From Candidatus Omnitrophota bacterium (GTDB lineage Bacteria > Omnitrophota > Omnitrophia > Omnitrophales > Aquincolibacteriaceae), in contig JAQTOZ010000001.1 in NCBI GenBank assembly GCA_028713205.1, forward strand, positions 1 through 49,512: 49,512 nt of DNA. The letters are read 5' to 3'. The notes beneath the pieces were generated by a model. It had not been told where the DNA came from. It worked only from the letters and a program-made list of their open reading frames with translations, and searched no databases. Shown here piece after piece: positions 20,086-35,307 of the stretch. Position 1 is the first letter of the stretch, and every line of letters starts with the position of its first letter. The position numbers and the translations under genes are program-made.

Positions 20086-21741
20086 TTGGACGAACAACCG
20101 ATCAAAGTCCTTCTTTTTGAAGATGATGAGAGCTTTGCCAATATTGTGACGACCCGGCTTACCGCCGAGACCAGCGAGAAATTTGAGCTCGAAAACGTCG
20201 CCAGTCTTGCCGAAGGGATCGAGCGGCTTTGCCAGCACAAAGTCGATGTCATCCTCCTGGATTTGAATCTTCCCGACGGCCAGGGGGTCGAAAACGTCGA
20301 AAAGATCCGCCTGTATGCACCCTTAGTGCCGATTGTGATCTTCACGGGAATGGATGATGAGGACATGGCGATCCGTGCCCTGCAGAAGGGCGCCGAAGAT
20401 TATGTGGTCAAGGGGTCTGTCCCCGCCAAGTTGCTGACGCGAATCATCCTCTATGCGATCGAGCGTAACCGCATCAAACGGGATCTGGATTATGCCAAGA
20501 AGCAGCTTGAACAAATGGTCCTCATCGATCCGCTGACCGAAATACTCAATCGCCGCGGTTTGCAAGAGGCCCTCTCGCGCGAAACGATGATGCTGCGCCG
20601 TTACGGGACGAGCCTCATTTCGATGCTCATCGATCTCGATAATTTCAAAATGATCAATGATTCTCTCGGCCACAATGTCGGCGATATCATCCTGAAAGAG
20701 GTCGCGCGCGTGATCAAAGAGAAGCTGCGTTTTACGGACCACATCTCGCGTATCGGCGGCGATGAATTCCTGGCGCTGATGCCCAATACGCGTTTGGGCG
20801 AAGGACTGCGGGTGGCGGAACGTTTGCGTCTCGCGATATCTTCCGCGGTGATTTCCGTGGATTCCGGCAAGCGGGTGACCGTCACGGCCAGCATGGGGGT
20901 GATCCAGATCGGCGACGCGGATTTTACGATCGACCAGCTCTTGGCCCAGACCCATCATATGCTCAAGAAAAGCAAACAAACGGGGAAGGATTCGATCACC
21001 TATTCGGACGGTCATTATGCGATTCAGCTGGAGAAAGATAAAAAGCTCTCGGAGTTCGTCGAGGTCGTTTCGAAGGGGATGGCCTTCCATGCCTTGAAGC
21101 ATCCTATCTTTTATCTGCGCAATGAGGCCCTGGCCGGCTACGAATTTTTAAGCCGCCTGCAATTTCCGACCTTTGAAATGCCGGATGATTTTTTCCGTTT
21201 GGCGCGTGAAGCGAAGATCCTGACCTTAGTCGATCATCAATGTTTCCGGTCCTGTATCCGGGCCGGATCGGATTTGCCCAAAGACATTGTCAGTTATATC
21301 AACCTGTTGCCCTCGACCTTGATCGACATTGCCCCGGAGAAACTGCTCGAAGAGTTTCCGAAGAACCGGCCGATGAAAAACTATTGTATCGAAATCAGCG
21401 AAAAGCAAGTGATCGGAAATCCTTCTTATCTCATCGAGCCGATCAAGACGTTGAAAAAAGCGGGTCTTTCGATTGCCTTGGATGACGTCGGATTCGGACA
21501 AAGCTGCTTGGAGAGTCTGGTCATCCTGGAGCCCGATATCATGAAAATCGACCGTTCCTGGATCAACGGGATTACCCAGGACAAATTCAAATTGAAACAA
21601 GTGGAACGGCTTTTGAAAATCGCCGACAGTCTCGGGTTGGAGGTCGTCGCGGAAGGGATCGAGACACGCGAAAATCTCGAGACTTTAAAGACGATGAATG
21701 TCAAATTCGGCCAAGGCTTCCTCTGGGGCAAGCCTGCCTAA
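20086..21741 (+). CDS. Response regulator receiver + GGDEF + EAL (c-di-GMP turnover protein)
   Basis: REC domain (VILLDLNLPDGQG). GGDEF with I-site (RFTD-HISRI-GGDEF). EAL domain motifs YEFLSR, DDVGFG, EGIETRE, GQGFLWGKP. TTG start with AAAGGGG RBS at 20072-20078. Confidence 0.9.
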   Translation: MDEQPIKVLLFEDDESFANIVTTRLTAETSEKFELENVASLAEGIERLCQHKVDVILLDLNLPDGQGVENVEKIRLYAPLVPIVIFTGMDDEDMAIRALQKGAEDYVVKGSVPAKLLTRIILYAIERNRIKRDLDYAKKQLEQMVLIDPLTEILNRRGLQEALSRETMMLRRYGTSLISMLIDLDNFKMINDSLGHNVGDIILKEVARVIKEKLRFTDHISRIGGDEFLALMPNTRLGEGLRVAERLRLAISSAVISVDSGKRVTVTASMGVIQIGDADFTIDQLLAQTHHMLKKSKQTGKDSITYSDGHYAIQLEKDKKLSEFVEVVSKGMAFHALKHPIFYLRNEALAGYEFLSRLQFPTFEMPDDFFRLAREAKILTLVDHQCFRSCIRAGSDLPKDIVSYINLLPSTLIDIAPEKLLEEFPKNRPMKNYCIEISEKQVIGNPSYLIEPIKTLKKAGLSIALDDVGFGQSCLESLVILEPDIMKIDRSWINGITQDKFKLKQVERLLKIADSLGLEVVAEGIETRENLETLKTMNVKFGQGFLWGKPA

Positions 21742-21782: not shown

Positions 21783-23075
21783 TCAAATCATCTGATACGA
21801 CAGATTTTCTTCGTCCGGGGGAACCGTTTCCTTGATCTTGAGCAACGGAACGATGAAGCGCACGCCGCGCTGTTTCAAGGGTTCGATTTTACCGAGAATT
21901 TCCCGAGCGAAATTCCACGCAAAGATGATGATAAAATCCGGCCGGTGGGTTTCCAGACGGGCACTTGAGACAATCGGAATCCGTGTGCCCGGGACGAAAT
22001 GATTTTGTTTGAGCGGGTTGTCGTCGACGACATAATCGATCTGGCGAGTGTTTAACTCGCAGAAGTTGATGATGGTCGATGCCTTGGCCGGCGCGCCGTA
22101 ACCCGCGATTGACCGTCCTTCCGCCCTGATTTTTTCGATACAGGCCAACAGATCCGTTTTGACCTTCATGACTTTTCCGGCAAAGGTCCGGTAAACCTGC
22201 TCGGAATCGAATCCACGGCGTTTTTCTTCGGCGAGAAAGGCTGATACCACCGGTTCGATTTTATGACGTCCCTCTTTTTTCTTGATAAAGACCCTCAGGG
22301 AACCGCCGTGGGAGGCCACTTCCTGAATATCAAAAACCTCCATCCCGAATTGCGGCAAAAGGCGTGTCAGAGGAGTGACGGCGATATAGGAAAGATGTTC
22401 GTGGTAAATCATATCGAAATACATTTTCTCGAGCATCACCCCCAGATAAGGGAACTCGATCACAAAGATCCCGTTTTTATCCAGCAGTTCGGAAACGTTA
22501 CGGCAAACGGCATGGATGTCGTTGATATGCGCGAAGACGTTGTTGCCGCTGACGGCGTGGGCCTTGCCGAATTCGGCAAGGATGGCCGTCACACAGGCTT
22601 TATCAAAATAGCGGTTGAGTGTGCGCAGCCCTTTTTGGTTGGCTTCCTCCGCCAGATTGGTGGCCGGGTCGACGCCGACGGCACGCAGGCTTTCCTGTTG
22701 ATAGCAGGCCAGCAGGAGACCGTCGTTGCTGCCGATGTCAACCGCCAAAGGGTTCTTCGCATTTCCGAGCTTTTCCCGGACGGTGCAGGCGTAATCGGCA
22801 AAATGTTTTTGAAAGGTCTTTGTGGTGGAGCTGACGTAGAGATAATGTTTGAACATCAGATCGGGCGGAACGACATGGGTCAGTTGCACCAGATGACAGG
22901 ACGGACAAAGGGTGGTCCGGAGCGGGCACCGGAATTCTTCGTTGACGGGCGCGCTGACCGGGACATAGGAGTTGGCCAAAGCCACGGAGCCCAGATCGAG
23001 AAAGGCCGCAGGCAAAGGAGTCCTGCAATAACGGCACGTTTTTTTCAGATACTGATCGTGAGGGGGCGTGTTCAT
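21783..23075 (-). CDS. SAM-dependent C-methyltransferase of the NDP-sugar 3-C-methyltransferase (TylCIII-like) type
   Basis: N-terminal 4-Cys zinc module (CRYCRTPL...CPSCHLVQL), a class I methyltransferase core (AVDIGSNDG), and a C-terminal C-methyltransferase-type domain. Overlaps the SDR gene by 4 nt (ATGA). Confidence 0.8.
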   Translation of the reverse strand: MNTPPHDQYLKKTCRYCRTPLPAAFLDLGSVALANSYVPVSAPVNEEFRCPLRTTLCPSCHLVQLTHVVPPDLMFKHYLYVSSTTKTFQKHFADYACTVREKLGNAKNPLAVDIGSNDGLLLACYQQESLRAVGVDPATNLAEEANQKGLRTLNRYFDKACVTAILAEFGKAHAVSGNNVFAHINDIHAVCRNVSELLDKNGIFVIEFPYLGVMLEKMYFDMIYHEHLSYIAVTPLTRLLPQFGMEVFDIQEVASHGGSLRVFIKKKEGRHKIEPVVSAFLAEEKRRGFDSEQVYRTFAGKVMKVKTDLLACIEKIRAEGRSIAGYGAPAKASTIINFCELNTRQIDYVVDDNPLKQNHFVPGTRIPIVSSARLETHRPDFIIIFAWNFAREILGKIEPLKQRGVRFIVPLLKIKETVPPDEENLSYQMI

Positions 23076-23803
23076 GAATTGGGCGGTACTTCCACCGCCG
23101 TGATTTTGTTGTGACGGATAACGATATCGCTTCCGCTCGCGAGCGGGATCTCGCCATCCGCGATTTTGATGATTTTATCGGCGACAAAATCCGTACTTTG
23201 CTGTTTGACGGCGTCTTCTTCTCCGAAAAGGTCCGAGCGCATTTGGGTGTTCATGCCGCCGGGGCAGACCGTCACGCATTTCAAATCGACATCGGTGTTT
23301 TCTTTGGCAATGGCCTGGGTGAGGGCCAGGATGCCGAACTTGCTGACGGAGTATCCCGCGAGGTTCGGTACGGCCCGCTTGCCGGCCATCGAAGAGATGT
23401 TGAGAATCATGCCCTGCTTTTGGCTGCGGAAAATCGGGATGAAATATTTGCACATCAGAAAAGCCGAGATCAGGTTGACCGAAAGGTGCCGCTCGAATTC
23501 ATTCAGCGAATGGTCTTCCGTGCGCATCAACCGTCCGCCGTAACCGGCGTTGTTGATGAGGATGTCGATACGGGAGGCCTTGACCTTGAAAATCCGCACA
23601 AATTTCAGGACCTGGGATTCTTTGGTCAAATCCAAAACGTGAAATGACAAATTTTTGTGATCGGGAATCGTCGCAAGCGCGCTCTTCCAGTATTGTTGTG
23701 TCTTGCTGATACCGAAGACACGGTCTCCGGCCTGCAGAAATCTCCGGGTCAAGCTTAATCCGAGTCCCCGGCTGGCTCCTGTGATGATCACGGTTCTGGA
23801 CAT
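23072..23803 (-). CDS. Short-chain dehydrogenase/reductase (putative sugar ketoreductase)
   Basis: TGASRGLG cofactor motif, NNAG, YSVSK (YxxxK). Confidence 0.9.
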   Translation of the reverse strand: MSRTVIITGASRGLGLSLTRRFLQAGDRVFGISKTQQYWKSALATIPDHKNLSFHVLDLTKESQVLKFVRIFKVKASRIDILINNAGYGGRLMRTEDHSLNEFERHLSVNLISAFLMCKYFIPIFRSQKQGMILNISSMAGKRAVPNLAGYSVSKFGILALTQAIAKENTDVDLKCVTVCPGGMNTQMRSDLFGEEDAVKQQSTDFVADKIIKIADGEIPLASGSDIVIRHNKITAVEVPPNS

Positions 23804-23827
23804 AAAGGCCTGTCTGTGTGCGACGTC

Positions 23828-24244
23828 CTATCGGGTCGCGACTTGTTTGAGGTTCGGATTTATATAGCCTTCCGTGACCTGAAAGGCAAAGGTATCGTTT
23901 TCATATTTGCCGTCTTCGCGTTCGCGGGTTGTCATGGCCAGGAATACCGAATCCTCGGTGAATTTCTGGGCGTGGGCAATCATCGGCGGCGTTGCGACGA
24001 TGTCCCCGGGCCGTACGCGCAGCACTTGCTTCTTTTCGGGGCTGTCCACGGCGCAGCAGTGACTTTCGTAGGCCCCGCTTACCAGATAGATGTATTGATA
24101 ATCTTCTTTGTGATAATGGTTGGCGCGTACCGACCCTTTTTTGGAGGTGATTAAGGCGACGTGCCCCAGTTTTCCTTCAAATAAGTTATAAATTTCGCCG
24201 CGTTGATCTTTGACGGCCGCGTCGATGTGTTTCAAGGTTTCCAT
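23828..24244 (-). CDS. Cupin-fold protein (sugar epimerase/ketoisomerase-like, CapF C-terminal/WbuC-like)
   Basis: 138-aa ORF with DQRGEIYNLFE...SVRANHYHKEDYQYIYLVSG...PPMIAHA cupin motifs. Operon context with sugar-nucleotide enzymes. Confidence 0.6.
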   Translation of the reverse strand: METLKHIDAAVKDQRGEIYNLFEGKLGHVALITSKKGSVRANHYHKEDYQYIYLVSGAYESHCCAVDSPEKKQVLRVRPGDIVATPPMIAHAQKFTEDSVFLAMTTREREDGKYENDTFAFQVTEGYINPNLKQVATR

Positions 24245-24264: not shown

Positions 24265-25677
24265 TTAAAAGTTAAATTCACGGAACCATTTGATGGTCCG
24301 GACAAGCCCTTCTTCGAGCGGATAACGGGGTTTGAATCCCGTGACCTTGGTCAGCTTGGAGATGTCCGGGCAACGTCTTTTGGGATCGGCGCTGGCATAC
24401 ACGGTGTGAGGCGGATCGATATTGACGACGTCGACCTTGTAAGGCATAAACTCCGCAACCATCGCTCCCAGATCCTTGACGGAAATTTCGGGTGCGGGAT
24501 TGCCGATATTGAAGGCCTCTCCGTTTGCCTTTGAAAAAAGCACTTTGAAAAGCGCTTCGAGCGCGTCATTGATGTAACAAAACGAGCGCGTGTTTTTCCC
24601 TTCGCCGTGAATCGGGAGGGGCTCTTTCCTTAAGGCATGTTCGATGAAATTGGGGAGCACCCGATAATCATCGGGACGGATGCCGGGTCCGTAGACGTTA
24701 AAAGGCCTCACCATTTTGACCGGTACGTTGAACACCTTCCAGTAAGTCATGCACATCGTTTCCCCGAAACGCTTGGATTCATCGTAACAGGAACGCGGTC
24801 CCAAAATGGAGACATTCCCATAGTAATCTTCTTTCGTGGGGACATGTTTCGGGTCGGGATCGCCGTAAACTTCGCTTGAACTTGTGAAAAGGAAACTTTT
24901 CACGTTTTTGATGCGCGCAAGTTCCAGCATGTTGCGTGTCCCCAGCGTTCCGACATCCATGGTCTCGATGGGATATTTGGTGTAATAGACCGGGGAAGCG
25001 ATGCCGGCGGCATGAATCAGATAGTCAATCGGCTCATCCGTGCTAAAGGGCTTGACCACGTCTGCACGGTAAAACGCCAGATTTTCATCCGAAATGACGC
25101 GTTGTTCATAGCCTGTGACAAAATTATCGAGGAGCAGGGCCTTGGCCTTGCGGCTGAGAACGTTCTCATTCAAATATTTGAGAAGGAAGACCATGTAGCG
25201 GCCGAGAAAACCAAAAGCACCCGTGATCAGGAAAGTCTTTCCCGCGAAGAGGTGATAATAACCGTCGAGGCTTTTGGCGAGTTCCTTGATATCTTCGGTG
25301 ATGACCTTGGAAGTGGCCAATTCGCCGAGGCTGTTTCGCTTGGGCGCCCCGGCCGTTTTCGGTTTTGCGGGGGATTTCACCGGAGATTGGAGCGGTTCGG
25401 CTTTGGGTTCCTGCTTTTGCGGTATTGCTACCGTGGAGGCTTGGCCCGGCTGTTGCTTCGCCAGCGCGGTTTGTACCGCTTTTAAATCATCATCCAGCTC
25501 ATCGATCAGTCCGAGGTTGATATAACTTTTGATGACTTGTTGATAACCCATATCGCCTTTTTTCTCGGCAACTTTGCGCAACTTTGAAATGGTCTCTTTC
25601 GGGATGCGCATCGAAATGAGTTTGGTCCCCGAACCTTTATCTTGTTTTGGATCTTCTGATTTTTTATTTTTGGCCAT
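24265..25677 (-). CDS. UDP-glucuronate decarboxylase-like extended SDR fused to an N-terminal ribbon-helix-helix (BrnA/CopG-like) domain
   Basis: Residues ~17-60 read KLISMRIPKETISKLRKVAEKKGDMGYQQVIKSYINLGL (RHH strand-helix-helix with GYQxxI motif). A Pro/Lys-rich linker follows, then the Rossmann motif ITGAFGFLGRY and YDESKRFGE (YxxxK) in a UXS-like pattern. AAGGAGG RBS upstream of ATG 25677. Confidence 0.8.
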   Translation of the reverse strand: MAKNKKSEDPKQDKGSGTKLISMRIPKETISKLRKVAEKKGDMGYQQVIKSYINLGLIDELDDDLKAVQTALAKQQPGQASTVAIPQKQEPKAEPLQSPVKSPAKPKTAGAPKRNSLGELATSKVITEDIKELAKSLDGYYHLFAGKTFLITGAFGFLGRYMVFLLKYLNENVLSRKAKALLLDNFVTGYEQRVISDENLAFYRADVVKPFSTDEPIDYLIHAAGIASPVYYTKYPIETMDVGTLGTRNMLELARIKNVKSFLFTSSSEVYGDPDPKHVPTKEDYYGNVSILGPRSCYDESKRFGETMCMTYWKVFNVPVKMVRPFNVYGPGIRPDDYRVLPNFIEHALRKEPLPIHGEGKNTRSFCYINDALEALFKVLFSKANGEAFNIGNPAPEISVKDLGAMVAEFMPYKVDVVNIDPPHTVYASADPKRRCPDISKLTKVTGFKPRYPLEEGLVRTIKWFREFNF

Positions 25678-25733
25678 GAAGGGCCTCCTTTAATAAAACG
25701 GAAATAGTGACGCCTTTGCCGGTCGTACAGGTT

Positions 25734-25828
25734 TTTGTATATACGGTCATGGAATTAAGGCGAAACAGGTGTATTTGTATATACAAATAGCGCTTTTGTC
25801 AAGCTTTTTTTGCTAGCGTATATACAAA
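25734..25828. promoter_or_regulatory. Three phased GTATATAC-core palindromic operator candidates
   Basis: TTTGTATATAC at 25734-25744; perfect 16-bp palindrome ATTTGTATATACAAAT at 25773-25788; GTATATACAAA at 25818-25828. Core centres are 40 and 41 bp apart. Confidence 0.5.
25773..25802 (-). promoter_or_regulatory. Sigma-70-like promoter of the RHH-decarboxylase operon, overlapped by the central palindrome
   Basis: On the minus strand there is a perfect TTGACA (plus coordinates 25797-25802). TATACA / TACAAA -10 candidates at 15-17 nt spacing lie inside the 25773-25788 palindrome. Confidence 0.45.
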
Positions 25829-25924
25829 CTGATCGCAAGGGCGTGGGACCGGCCGGTTTGCGATTCAGGCCGCCGCACAAAGAAACTTTAGAAGGTGCGG
25901 TTCAAAGACTTGCGAGGGAAGGAA

Positions 25925-26305
25925 TCAGACGCCGAGGATTTTGTGGATTTCTTCGACGAGCTTTTCGATGTCAAAGGGTTTGGTGATATAACTGTTGGCG
26001 CCGATGACTTTACCGATGATGCGATCGACCTCGCCGATTTTTGCCGTGACCATGATAATCGGTGTTTGAGAGAAGATCTCATCGTCGCATTCGCGGATCG
26101 CTTTGCAGACTTCCTCACCGGAGAGTTCGGGGAGCATCAGGTCCAGGATGATCAAATCAGGCCTTTTTTCCCGTGCCTCCCGCAAACCGGCTTCGCCGTC
26201 GTGGGCGGTCAGGACCTCAAACCCGATTTTTCTGAGACGAAAGGAGAGCAGTTTGGTAATGTCCAATTCATCTTCAATGATAAGGATTTTTCTGCCGTTC
26301 GTCAT
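25925..26305 (-). CDS. Single-domain CheY-like response regulator
   Basis: 126-aa ORF with KILIIEDE...PDLIILDLMLPELSGEEV...ITKPF receiver motifs. Confidence 0.9.
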   Translation of the reverse strand: MTNGRKILIIEDELDITKLLSFRLRKIGFEVLTAHDGEAGLREAREKRPDLIILDLMLPELSGEEVCKAIRECDDEIFSQTPIIMVTAKIGEVDRIIGKVIGANSYITKPFDIEKLVEEIHKILGV

Positions 26306-34670: not shown

Positions 34671-35186
34671 TCACTATTGTATGAATCGTGTCCAAGAATG
34701 CACGATAAATTTTCACGAATTTTCATCGCGCCGGATTTTCGACGGGATTTTTGAAATGTTGCGGAAGCCGGCAAGAGGGAGATCCGGAAAAGAATTCCGA
34801 GGGAGACCCGGCAGGGGCACTCCCTCCTGTCTTGCGGGAAGGAAAATTCAGTCGATGTGACCGGCGCTTGAAGTTTTAATCCCGCGCATCAAAAATAATG
34901 TATTTTGGGAGGGGTGTTTTGCGCCGAAAAGACGGTTCTTTCGTAAAAGCAGAACGCGGAAACGTCTGATTGCAAATATCATGTTTTGGCAAAAACAAAT
35001 TGCCGCCATTTCACCCCTTTTTAGGGCAAAAAACGGCGTCCTTTTTACTCCAAATTGATACCCCGTTCGCATAGCAACTTTTCGACAGTCATTTCGTGTT
35101 TTTAAAAAATGATTCAAAATATCGTATCCCTTTCAATGGCAATGTTTTAAGCTTATAGAATTTGCTTTATAAAGTAGGTGGTTGCC

Positions 35187-35215
35187 TTGACATGCATGCA
35201 TATGCCATATAAATT
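35187..35215 (+). promoter_or_regulatory. Candidate sigma-70-like promoter for the giant ORF
   Basis: Perfect TTGACA at 35187-35192, followed by TATAAA/ATAAAT/TAAATT candidates at 15-17 nt spacing in a very AT-rich stretch ~95-120 nt upstream of ATG 35308. Confidence 0.35.
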
Positions 35216-35307
35216 TTAAATGTAATTAAAAAGTTTATAAAAATGTATATGTTTGTTTGGCGGTGGAGGCGCAAATCTTAGGATGAAAGGTAAAGTCAGT
35301 AGTTAAT

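What the first reader, a model, noticed from the sequence alone, without database searches (positions are those of the whole stretch)
25734..25828. Three phased TTTGTATATACAAA-type palindromes overlapping a consensus -35 promoter
Read directly: TTTGTATATAC (25734-25744), a perfect 16-bp palindrome ATTTGTATATACAAAT (25773-25788), and GTATATACAAA (25818-25828). The GTATATAC cores are 40 and 41 bp apart, roughly four helical turns, so all three are on one DNA face. On the minus strand a perfect TTGACA (25797-25802) lies 8 nt upstream of the central palindrome, so the palindrome covers the spacer/-10 region of the promoter driving the RHH-fused enzyme. This is the textbook geometry of a repressor operator with auxiliary sites for cooperative binding or looping. 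A degenerate half-site (TGTATAT, 35244-35250) also sits in the leader of the giant gene; this may be coincidence in AT-rich DNA.
Basis: seen in the sequence. Interest (0 to 1): 0.6.

Follow-up and report, generated by a model that had tools for sequence, protein, structure and literature searches.

The report
Self-operators of an RHH-fused sugar enzyme
Three copies of the 8-bp palindrome GTATATAC sit on the promoter of a sugar-nucleotide enzyme gene whose product carries its own small DNA-binding domain, and comparison with relatives indicates they are that domain's binding sites, so the enzyme most likely shuts off its own operon.

Summary
GTATATAC occurs 7 times in the 3.15-Mb Omnitrophota genome, and 3 of those lie within 92 bp here.

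In the host family, all 22 genomes with the ribbon-helix-helix (RHH)-fused UXS-like dehydrogenase have 2-3 exact cores directly upstream. The first core lies 10-12 nt after a conserved TTGACA, so it covers the -10. The second lies in the leader. Orthologues without the RHH lack the motif, but the fusion arose only once, so this is retention and not 22 independent events.

Independent support comes from toxin-antitoxin modules elsewhere in the phylum. Stand-alone BrnA and RHH-Doc antitoxins with the same beta-strand (KLIS/TxR) carry tandem GTATATA(C/T) cores on their own promoters.

Core-to-core spacings in the fusion clade cluster at about 2, 3 and 4 helical turns. No regulon exists: other sites in the genome are at chance level, and the 35244 half-site is coincidence.

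Best reading: autorepression of a four-gene sugar operon by a PutA-like enzyme-repressor whose DNA-binding module and operator derive from a BrnA antitoxin. Binding is inferred, not shown. The scan had already reached this reading from the gene side (e1-3318823).

The parts
25818..25825 (.). Upstream operator core GTATATAC (O-up). It lies 15 nt upstream of the -35 on the gene (minus) strand and is lineage-specific.
   Evidence: sequence. Conserved in close relative L093. Absent as a third site in most other fusion-bearing genomes.
25797..25802 (-). -35 hexamer TTGACA
   Evidence: Perfect TTGACA at the equivalent place in 21 of 22 orthologous promoters.
25772..25789 (.). Promoter-proximal operator (O-prox). 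The core GTATATAC is at 25777-25784, inside an 18-bp perfect palindrome, and it overlaps the -10.
   Evidence: A core starts 16-18 nt after the start of the -35 in all 22 genomes. Information content is 2 bits at the 8 core positions, about 1-1.4 bits at the flanking T and A, and about 0 elsewhere.
25774..25779 (-). Candidate -10 hexamer TACAAA (17-nt spacer), formed by the 3' half of O-prox plus 3 nt
   Evidence: Reading. The hexamer is TACAAT in 8 orthologues. Not called by the strict consensus scan. The TSS is not mapped.
25737..25744 (.). Downstream operator core GTATATAC (O-dist), in the predicted 5' leader, 59 nt before the ATG
   Evidence: A second core 21-43 bp downstream of the first is present in all 22 genomes.
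25684..25691 (-). Shine-Dalgarno AAAGGAGG
   Evidence: sequence, 6 nt before the ATG at 25677.
25507..25629 (-). Coding region of the N-terminal RHH domain (residues about 17-57: KLISMRIPKETISKLRKVAEKKGDMGYQQVIKSYINLGL)
   Evidence: Pfam CopG_antitoxin matched in 25 of 25 aligned domains, plus Arc, RHH_1 and BrnA. I21, S22 and R24 are invariant. Two helices at 27-39 and 45-54 in the AF2 model, at low confidence.
24265..25677 (-). Gene for the 470-aa RHH - low-complexity linker - UXS-like extended SDR
   Evidence: The closest solved structure is human UDP-glucuronate decarboxylase 2b69 (E 1.2e-58).
21783..24244 (-). The rest of the presumed regulated operon: cupin, 243-aa SDR and C-methyltransferase
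   Evidence: Pfam. The cassette is conserved behind both fused and unfused orthologues.

Best explanation
The three GTATATAC palindromes are operators for the ribbon-helix-helix domain at the N-terminus of the enzyme encoded immediately downstream.

Proposed mechanism:
- One RHH dimer, formed by two subunits of the SDR homodimer, is expected to insert its two-stranded beta-sheet (KLISMRIP) into the major groove of one 8-bp palindrome.
- The proximal site overlaps the -10 and the distal site lies in the early transcribed region, so occupancy should block RNA polymerase. This would repress the four-gene operon SDR-cupin-SDR-C-methyltransferase, giving negative autoregulation.
- Sites are spaced by whole numbers of helical turns. 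That spacing suggests two enzyme dimers (a tetramer), or neighbouring dimers, occupy them cooperatively from one face of the DNA, tethered by the 60-100-residue flexible linker.
- The extra upstream site in this lineage brackets the -35.

The DNA-binding module and its operator derive from a BrnA-type antitoxin of a BrnT/BrnA toxin-antitoxin module.

Shown here: motif rarity, position, conservation, co-occurrence with the domain, and recurrence on promoters of homologous stand-alone RHH proteins.

Inferred: physical binding, the direction of regulation (repression), stoichiometry and looping, and any control by NAD or UDP-sugar ligands.
For: 1. Rarity. There are 7 cores in 3.15 Mb, 3 of them here. 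No other paired site exceeds chance.

2. Co-occurrence. In the family (66 genomes) the RHH domain is found in 22, always fused to the SDR. All 22 have 2-3 exact cores directly upstream. The 8 unfused orthologous promoters I read have none. Only 2 of the 44 RHH-less genomes have any core pair, and those are at an unrelated locus.

3. Footprint. The 8 core positions are invariant and the flanking T and A are partly conserved. The rest of the intergenic DNA is unalignable except for TTGACA.

4. Promoter geometry. The arrangement is TTGACA-N10-12-core, so TACAAT or TACAAA at a 15-17-nt spacer forms the -10.

5. Independent loci. In 9 assessable BrnT-BrnA-type loci whose RHH matches the fused-domain profile (E 1e-20 to 1e-23 for those in the genome search), the promoter carries TTGACA/TTGAAA-N3-GTATATA(C/T)-N3-GTATATA(C/T), or TTGAAA-N16-GTATATACAAT (L080, L083, L084, L088, L096-L100; L100 has no brnT). 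An RHH+Fic/Doc module whose beta-strand is KLITMRI has three cores 10 bp apart between TTGACT and the Shine-Dalgarno sequence.

6. RHH identity. Pfam CopG_antitoxin matched 25 of 25 domains (best E 1.9e-8), along with Arc, RHH_1 and BrnA. The PDB profile search gave weak Arc hits that align SiRiP with Arc's NLRWP.

7. Phasing. The 24 spacings are 12, 21-22, 30-32 and 40-43 bp. A Rayleigh test on the 9 distinct values gives p of about 0.002 at a 10.5-bp period. Set against the SDR tree, the spacing classes imply at least 5 independent jumps of about 10 bp.

8. Established knowledge (not tested here). RHH antitoxins and PutA autoregulate by binding operators in their own promoters. The BrnTA operon of Brucella abortus is autorepressed (Heaton et al. 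2012 J Biol Chem 287:12098; reference seen in PMC10098735; the paper itself is not held).
Against: - No binding, footprint, transcription start or expression data exist.
- The fusion arose once (one branch, support 97/89), so the 22/22 association is one event plus long retention, not 22 independent tests.
- The window's -10 (TACAAA) does not pass a strict sigma-70 consensus scan.
- The window protein's own Pfam RHH hit is below the curated cut-off (18.5 bits for the whole protein; 23.1 bits for the isolated domain; cut-off 28).
- The AF2 monomer model of the N-terminus has low confidence and shows no beta-strand, as expected for an obligate dimer but uninformative.
- GTATATAC also occurs in repeat arrays on mobile elements of other Omnitrophota, where no matching RHH was found nearby. 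The 8-mer is therefore not exclusive to this domain.
- Because the core contains a -10-like TATAC(A/T), part of its conservation at the proximal site could be promoter function.
Confidence: 0.75

Rival explanations
1. The palindromes are bound by a different, unlinked regulator (a host global factor or a stand-alone RHH or antitoxin), and the fused domain has another role, such as oligomerisation.
For: The same 8-mer occurs on mobile-element repeat arrays and a few other promoters in genomes that lack the fusion. Other proteins in the phylum may therefore read it.
Against: In this genome the RHH profile has a single match, the fused domain, and the motif has no other non-chance locus. Orthologous operons without the RHH lack the motif. 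The closest stand-alone homologues carry the motif on their own promoters.
Confidence: 0.08
2. The cores are promoter elements (tandem or extended -10 boxes of type TATAC(A/T)) inherited with the clade's promoter. No repressor is involved.
For: The proximal core supplies the -10 (TACAAT) at the correct spacing from TTGACA. GTATATAC at a similar distance from a -35 is seen at a few unrelated loci (L036 and L060).
Against: The distal core has no conserved -35 in front of it; flank information content is about 0. The outer G and C and the dyad symmetry are invariant, which a -10 does not require. The 8-mer is about 7-fold under-represented genome-wide, so it is not a general promoter element. TA promoters carry it in 10-11-bp tandems, the arrangement typical of RHH operators.
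Confidence: 0.07
3. The sites are a non-functional fossil of the BrnTA promoter that came along with the captured antitoxin domain.
For: The module clearly derives from BrnA-type antitoxins that use the same operator.
Against: Exact cores are kept in 22 genomes of 14 genera while all surrounding bases have randomised. The site arrangement has been remodelled from 11-bp tandems to phased 21-43-bp pairs. The DNA-facing residues S22 and R24 are invariant.
Confidence: 0.04
4. The cluster is a chance grouping of AT-rich palindromes.
For: The 14-mer with 3 mismatches is not significant within the window alone.
Against: Three of the 7 genomic copies lie within 92 bp, and the arrangement recurs in every orthologous fusion promoter.
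Confidence: 0.01

Closest known systems
PutA (proline utilisation A) of E. coli/Salmonella: an RHH domain fused to catalytic domains, autorepressor of the put regulon
   Same: An N-terminal RHH is fused to a metabolic enzyme. Several short operator sites lie in the promoter of its own operon. It is the textbook 'trigger enzyme' logic (own knowledge; trigger-enzyme reviews were found).
   Different: The catalytic part here is a UXS-like extended SDR, not PRODH/P5CDH. The operator is the palindrome GTATATAC, not GTTGCA (own knowledge). No redox or membrane switch is evident, and ligand control is unknown. The protein is not a member of the PutA family.
BrnA / CopG_antitoxin (PF12441) antitoxins of BrnT-BrnA modules
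   Same: This is the best-matching family for the fused domain (25 of 25 domains). Stand-alone Omnitrophota BrnA proteins share the KLISIRLP...GYQQ(L/M)IK sequence and carry GTATATA(C/T) cores on their promoters.
   Different: There is no adjacent toxin. The N-terminal segment of BrnA that precedes the RHH (DFDESQALHVP...) is missing, and the domain is fused to an enzyme. The operators are 21-43 bp apart instead of 11-bp tandems.
NikR (RHH plus a central tetramerising ligand-binding domain)
   Same: Two RHH dimers are held apart by a ligand-binding oligomeric core and bind two half-operators separated by whole helical turns (own knowledge). This resembles the phased distant sites found here.
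   Different: The NikR core is an ACT-like nickel-binding domain C-terminal to the RHH, with a fixed spacing. Here a long flexible linker allows 2, 3 or 4 turns. The oligomeric state was not determined.
MetJ / Arc repressors
   Same: One RHH dimer binds each short palindromic box: the 8-bp met box AGACGTCT for MetJ (own knowledge). There are weak profile hits to Arc.
   Different: MetJ and Arc boxes are contiguous, with direct dimer-dimer contacts, and neither protein has an enzyme domain.

Membership tests
Ribbon-helix-helix (RHH/MetJ-Arc) DNA-binding superfamily | Sequence match to RHH-clan profiles | tested here: met
   All 25 aligned N-terminal domains hit PF12441 (best E 1.9e-8); 14 hit Arc, 9 RHH_1 and 3 BrnA. 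The window's own domain scores 23.1 bits, below the 28-bit cut-off.
Ribbon-helix-helix (RHH/MetJ-Arc) DNA-binding superfamily | Beta-strand / helix / turn (G-x-S/T/N-like) / helix topology forming an intertwined dimer | tested here: inconclusive
   The AF2 monomer gives helices at 27-39 and 45-54 but pLDDT below 70 and no strand. The sequence pattern LISxRIP - helix - GDxGYQ - helix fits. The dimer could not be modelled with these tools.
Ribbon-helix-helix (RHH/MetJ-Arc) DNA-binding superfamily | Sequence-specific binding to a repeated or palindromic operator | not testable with these tools
   Only the comparative association could be examined.
BrnA/CopG_antitoxin type II antitoxins | Encoded next to a BrnT toxin gene in a two-gene module | tested here: not met
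   The neighbours are a receiver-domain gene and the cupin gene, and no BrnT is present. The fused clade is therefore derived from this family, not a member of it.
BrnA/CopG_antitoxin type II antitoxins | N-terminal region preceding the RHH | tested here: not met
   Stand-alone BrnA proteins have about 45 residues (…DFDESQALHVP…) before KLISIRLP. The fused protein has only a short basic tail.
PutA-type trigger enzyme (enzyme that is also the repressor of its own operon) | DNA-binding domain and catalytic domain in one polypeptide | tested here: met
   There is one continuous ORF in 22 genomes and at least 50 database clusters of 425-475 aa.
PutA-type trigger enzyme (enzyme that is also the repressor of its own operon) | Operators in its own promoter | tested here: met
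PutA-type trigger enzyme (enzyme that is also the repressor of its own operon) | DNA binding modulated by substrate or cofactor state | not testable with these tools
   No data. This is inference only.
PutA-type trigger enzyme (enzyme that is also the repressor of its own operon) | Homology to PutA catalytic domains (PRODH/P5CDH) | tested here: not met
   The catalytic part is an extended SDR closest to UDP-glucuronate decarboxylase.
Sigma-70-type promoter | -35 and -10 hexamers with a 16-18-nt spacer | tested here: inconclusive
   TTGACA is perfect and conserved in 21 of 22 genomes. The -10 is TACAAA here and TACAAT in 8 relatives. The strict scan finds no promoter in the window.

The most novel reading that the evidence does not exclude
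A toxin-antitoxin antitoxin's DNA-binding domain, together with its operator, was captured by the first enzyme of a nucleotide-sugar pathway. This produced a metabolite-sensing trigger enzyme. NAD or UDP-sugar occupancy would shift the SDR dimer-tetramer equilibrium and thereby control cooperative, looped occupancy of helically phased operators. It would be a new RHH-enzyme class beside PutA, and a documented route from a TA module to a metabolic regulator.
Probability: 0.3. Interest if true: 0.7.

Novelty: new variant of a known kind. Interest (0 to 1): 0.55.

Why it matters
Enzymes that double as the repressor of their own pathway are few, and PutA is the only well-studied RHH example.

This case has an unusually clean, testable operator: an invariant 8-bp palindrome, 2-3 copies, with phased spacing. 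It belongs to an uncultured phylum, Omnitrophota, where essentially no transcription-factor/operator pair is known. Its evolutionary source is visible, since BrnA antitoxins use the same operator on their own promoters.

It offers a ready in vitro system of a small domain and a short site. It gives a specificity pair (KLISxR beta-strand with GTATATAC) for RHH recognition rules. It also shows how toxin-antitoxin parts can be recycled into metabolic regulation of cell-surface sugar synthesis.

Tried and rejected
- **14-mer in the window.** The 8-mer is the informative unit.
- **Regulon search.** Exact and 1-mismatch cores and 10-mers across the whole genome gave only chance-level extras. One is inside an ORF on C120 and one is in an AT-rich leader on C292. 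There is no regulon.
- **Half-site at 35244.** Rejected as coincidence.
- **Consensus promoter and terminator scan of 25500-26100.** No promoter was called because the -10 ends in A. The one terminator-like hit is on the wrong strand, inside the gene.
- **PDB profile search with the RHH alignment.** Only weak Arc hits, E 0.3-1.
- **AF2 of the full protein.** The SDR part is confident, but the RHH and linker have low confidence. I ran no fold search on it because the N-terminus would give meaningless matches.
- **Search for the fused-type RHH next to the mobile-element core arrays (class B).** None was found within the fetched DNA.
- **Literature.** No paper combines 'ribbon-helix-helix' with UDP-glucuronic acid decarboxylase or PutA with GTTGCA. 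The BrnTA paper is not held.

Full report
**1. The observation.**
The stretch 25678-25924 is the intergenic region between two minus-strand genes. One is a stand-alone receiver-domain gene (25925-26305). The other encodes a 470-aa protein (24265-25677).

- GTATATAC cores start at 25737, 25777 and 25818, giving spacings of 40 and 41 bp.
- The central core sits in a perfect palindrome of 16 bp, in fact 18 bp (25772-25789).
- On the minus strand TTGACA occupies 25802..25797.

Read in the direction of the gene, the layout is: core - N15 - TTGACA - N12 - core(AAA) - N32 - core - N59 - ATG, with AAAGGAGG before the ATG.

**2. More than chance.**
The assembly holding the window is 3.15 Mb in 295 contigs with 51% G+C. 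Homologue names place it in Omnitrophota.

GTATATAC occurs only 7 times in that genome, against about 48 expected from composition. Three copies are here and the other four lie inside ORFs.

Allowing one mismatch per core, only two further pairs within 60 bp exist, matching the 1.8 expected by chance. One is inside an ORF and one is in an AT-rich leader. So there is no regulon.

The TGTATAT at 35244 is aaaaTGTATATGtttg, with two mismatches to the core and no dyad. That 7-mer is expected about twice per window.

**3. The gene downstream.**
The protein has three parts:
- an N-terminal segment of about 40 residues, KLISMRIPKETISKLRKVAEKKGDMGYQQVIKSYINLGL;
- a low-complexity linker of about 70 residues;
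- an extended SDR whose closest solved relative is human UDP-glucuronate decarboxylase (2b69, E 1.2e-58).

The N-terminal segment is an RHH by sequence. All 25 aligned homologous segments hit Pfam CopG_antitoxin (best E 1.9e-8), and the other hits are Arc, RHH_1, BrnA and RHH_10. A PDB profile search gives only weak Arc matches, which align SiRiP with Arc's beta-strand.

I21, S22, R24, Y45, Q46, I49 and K50 are invariant among 41 full-length homologues.

An AF2 monomer model places two helices at 27-39 and 45-54. Confidence is low and there is no strand, which is unsurprising for a domain that folds only as a dimer.

The gene heads a four-gene cassette of SDR, cupin, 243-aa SDR and C-methyltransferase. 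The cassette is conserved behind both fused and unfused orthologues.

**4. Comparative test in the same family.**
A search of 66 genomes of the family with the RHH segment finds it in 22. It is always at the N-terminus of the SDR.

A separate pattern search for two cores 8-60 nt apart finds a pair directly upstream of the RHH coding region in all 22 (layouts).
- TTGACA is perfect in 21 of 22 (TTGACG in the other).
- The first core always starts 10-12 nt after it.
- The 3' half of that core plus three bases therefore forms the -10 at a 15-17-nt spacer. The hexamer is TACAAT in 8 genomes, TACAAA in 6, and TACAGA, TACACT, TACATA or TACAGT in the rest.
- The second core lies 21-43 bp downstream and 11-59 nt before the ATG.

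Information content is 2 bits at the eight core positions and about 1-1.4 bits at a flanking T and A, giving the consensus T-GTATATAC-A. It is about zero elsewhere. Three sites are also a lineage feature, seen in the window, its 95%-identical relative L093 and G015.

None of the eight unfused orthologous promoters I examined has a core. Only 2 of the 44 RHH-less genomes in the family have any core pair, and those are at an unrelated conserved element.

An important caveat applies. In a tree of the SDR domains the fusions occupy one side of a single branch (support 97/89). The association is therefore one acquisition followed by strict retention over 14 genera, not 22 independent events.

**5. 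Independent loci.**
A profile search of 401 genomes of the phylum finds stand-alone proteins whose RHH matches almost as well as the fused ones (E 1e-20 to 1e-23). They are BrnA-type antitoxins encoded just after a BrnT-like toxin gene (Pfam).

Wherever the operon's promoter lies on the fetched DNA, it carries the same core.
- TTGACA-N3/4-GTATATA(T/C)-N3-GTATATA(C/T) occurs in L080 and L083.
- TTGAAA-N16-GTATATACAAT occurs in L084 and L088.
- Five further metagenome contigs, L096-L100, have one exact core or an 11-bp tandem right after TTGACA or TTGAAA (L100 has no brnT).
- Three loci were not assessable because the contig ended or brnT was degraded: L082, L087 and L101.

A different module, RHH (MKKLITMRIE...) plus Fic/Doc, has TTGACT-ttt-core-at-core-tt-core-AAGGAGG.

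Two more distant BrnA proteins (RSISIRLP and RAISIRLS) have one-mismatch cores, GCATATAC and GTATATAT.

A shared beta-strand signature, I-S/T-x-R, thus travels with GTATATAY in three different genetic contexts. This is the strongest available evidence that this RHH type reads this sequence. It also indicates that the fused domain and its operator came from a BrnA-type antitoxin.

Autorepression by RHH antitoxins, including BrnA, is established knowledge (Heaton et al. 2012). I saw that reference in PMC10098735, but the paper itself is not held.

**6. Geometry.**
In the TA promoters the cores are 10-11 bp apart, the usual arrangement for adjacent RHH dimers. In the fusion clade the 24 core-to-core distances are 12; 21, 22, 22; 30-32 (eleven values); and 40-43 (nine values). 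These correspond to about 1, 2, 3 and 4 turns of B-DNA.

A Rayleigh test on the nine distinct values gives p of about 0.002 for a 10.5-bp period. Laid on the SDR tree, the spacing classes require at least five independent changes of about 10 bp (my inference).

It suggests cooperative occupation by a multimer.

UXS-type SDRs are homodimers that can form tetramers (own knowledge, not tested). One RHH dimer per enzyme dimer, and two enzyme dimers per operator pair, tethered by the long linker, would fit. This part is inference.

**7. Mechanism and rivals.**
The proximal site covers the -10 and the distal site lies in the initial transcribed region. Here a third site also flanks the -35. The expected effect of occupancy is therefore repression, which means negative autoregulation of the sugar cassette.

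This works like PutA, and geometrically somewhat like NikR. The protein is not a member of either family, and it is no longer an antitoxin, having no toxin partner and no BrnA N-terminal region.

I consider three rivals unlikely for the reasons listed under each: an unlinked regulator, pure promoter elements, and a fossil BrnTA promoter. Whether substrate, product or cofactor modulates binding is unknown.

**8. Novelty and prior notes.**
No paper in the searched library links an RHH domain to a UDP-glucuronate-decarboxylase-type enzyme. The principle of an RHH enzyme-repressor with operators in its own promoter is known from PutA.

I rate this a new variant of a known kind, of moderate interest. 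It gives a clean operator/domain pair in an uncultured phylum, with a visible origin in a toxin-antitoxin module.

An earlier follow-up in this scan, on the gene itself (e1-3318823), reached the same PutA-like reading. I re-derived it independently. I also added the BrnTA and Doc promoter evidence, the helical phasing, the single-origin tree and the genome-wide absence of a regulon.

**9. Limits.**
E-values and counts come from incomplete metagenome-assembled genomes.

Noticed in passing
L091 7866-8312 (G057:C2 about 20865-21312); also L024, L027, L030, L035, L037-L041: Integrative mobile elements in distant Omnitrophota families carry 5-7 copies of a 41-42-bp repeat, '...GAAAGTGTC.CAC...GTATATAC'. 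The elements encode a large serine recombinase and a 787-aa primase-like protein, and the array lies between those two genes. It looks like an iteron or promoter array. No RHH of the fused type was found within the fetched DNA.
   Followed up: partly
L058 686-800 (G002:C35) and L059 990-1110 (G162:C1): Two family members without the fusion share GTATATAC-N10-GTATATAC followed by a conserved stretch of about 80 nt (…cgcgctaa.ttgtgc.gcctcgtttcgcc…). It is an unexplained conserved element, possibly an RNA or part of a mobile element.
   Followed up: no
L031 1268-1545 (G252:C1 about 100349): A compact RHH-antitoxin plus Fic/Doc toxin module lies immediately after a tRNA gene. Three GTATATAC cores at 10-bp spacing fill the whole promoter spacer.
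   Followed up: partly
L096, L097, L101, L102 (and L082-L084): The Omnitrophota BrnT-BrnA modules are usually followed by a third small gene, DUF6941 (PF22091, about 139 aa). This suggests a three-gene module.
   Followed up: no
G000 contig C292:10138-10165: A 27-bp AT palindrome, ATATATACAAT-CATAT-ATTGTATATAT, lies in the leader of another giant ORF (at least 1471 aa). It resembles the AT-rich leader of the window's giant gene at 35120-35307. It has only one-mismatch similarity to the core and is probably unrelated.
   Followed up: partly
window 25402-25482 (linker of the 470-aa protein) versus alignment A1 columns 125-150: Many fused orthologues have a short conserved I-G/A-T-P motif in the otherwise low-complexity linker. 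The window protein lacks it and has LQSPVKSP instead.
   Followed up: no
whole genome G000: GTATATAC is about 7-fold under-represented (7 found against about 48 expected). Excluding this locus the deficit is about 12-fold. The cause was not examined.
   Followed up: no
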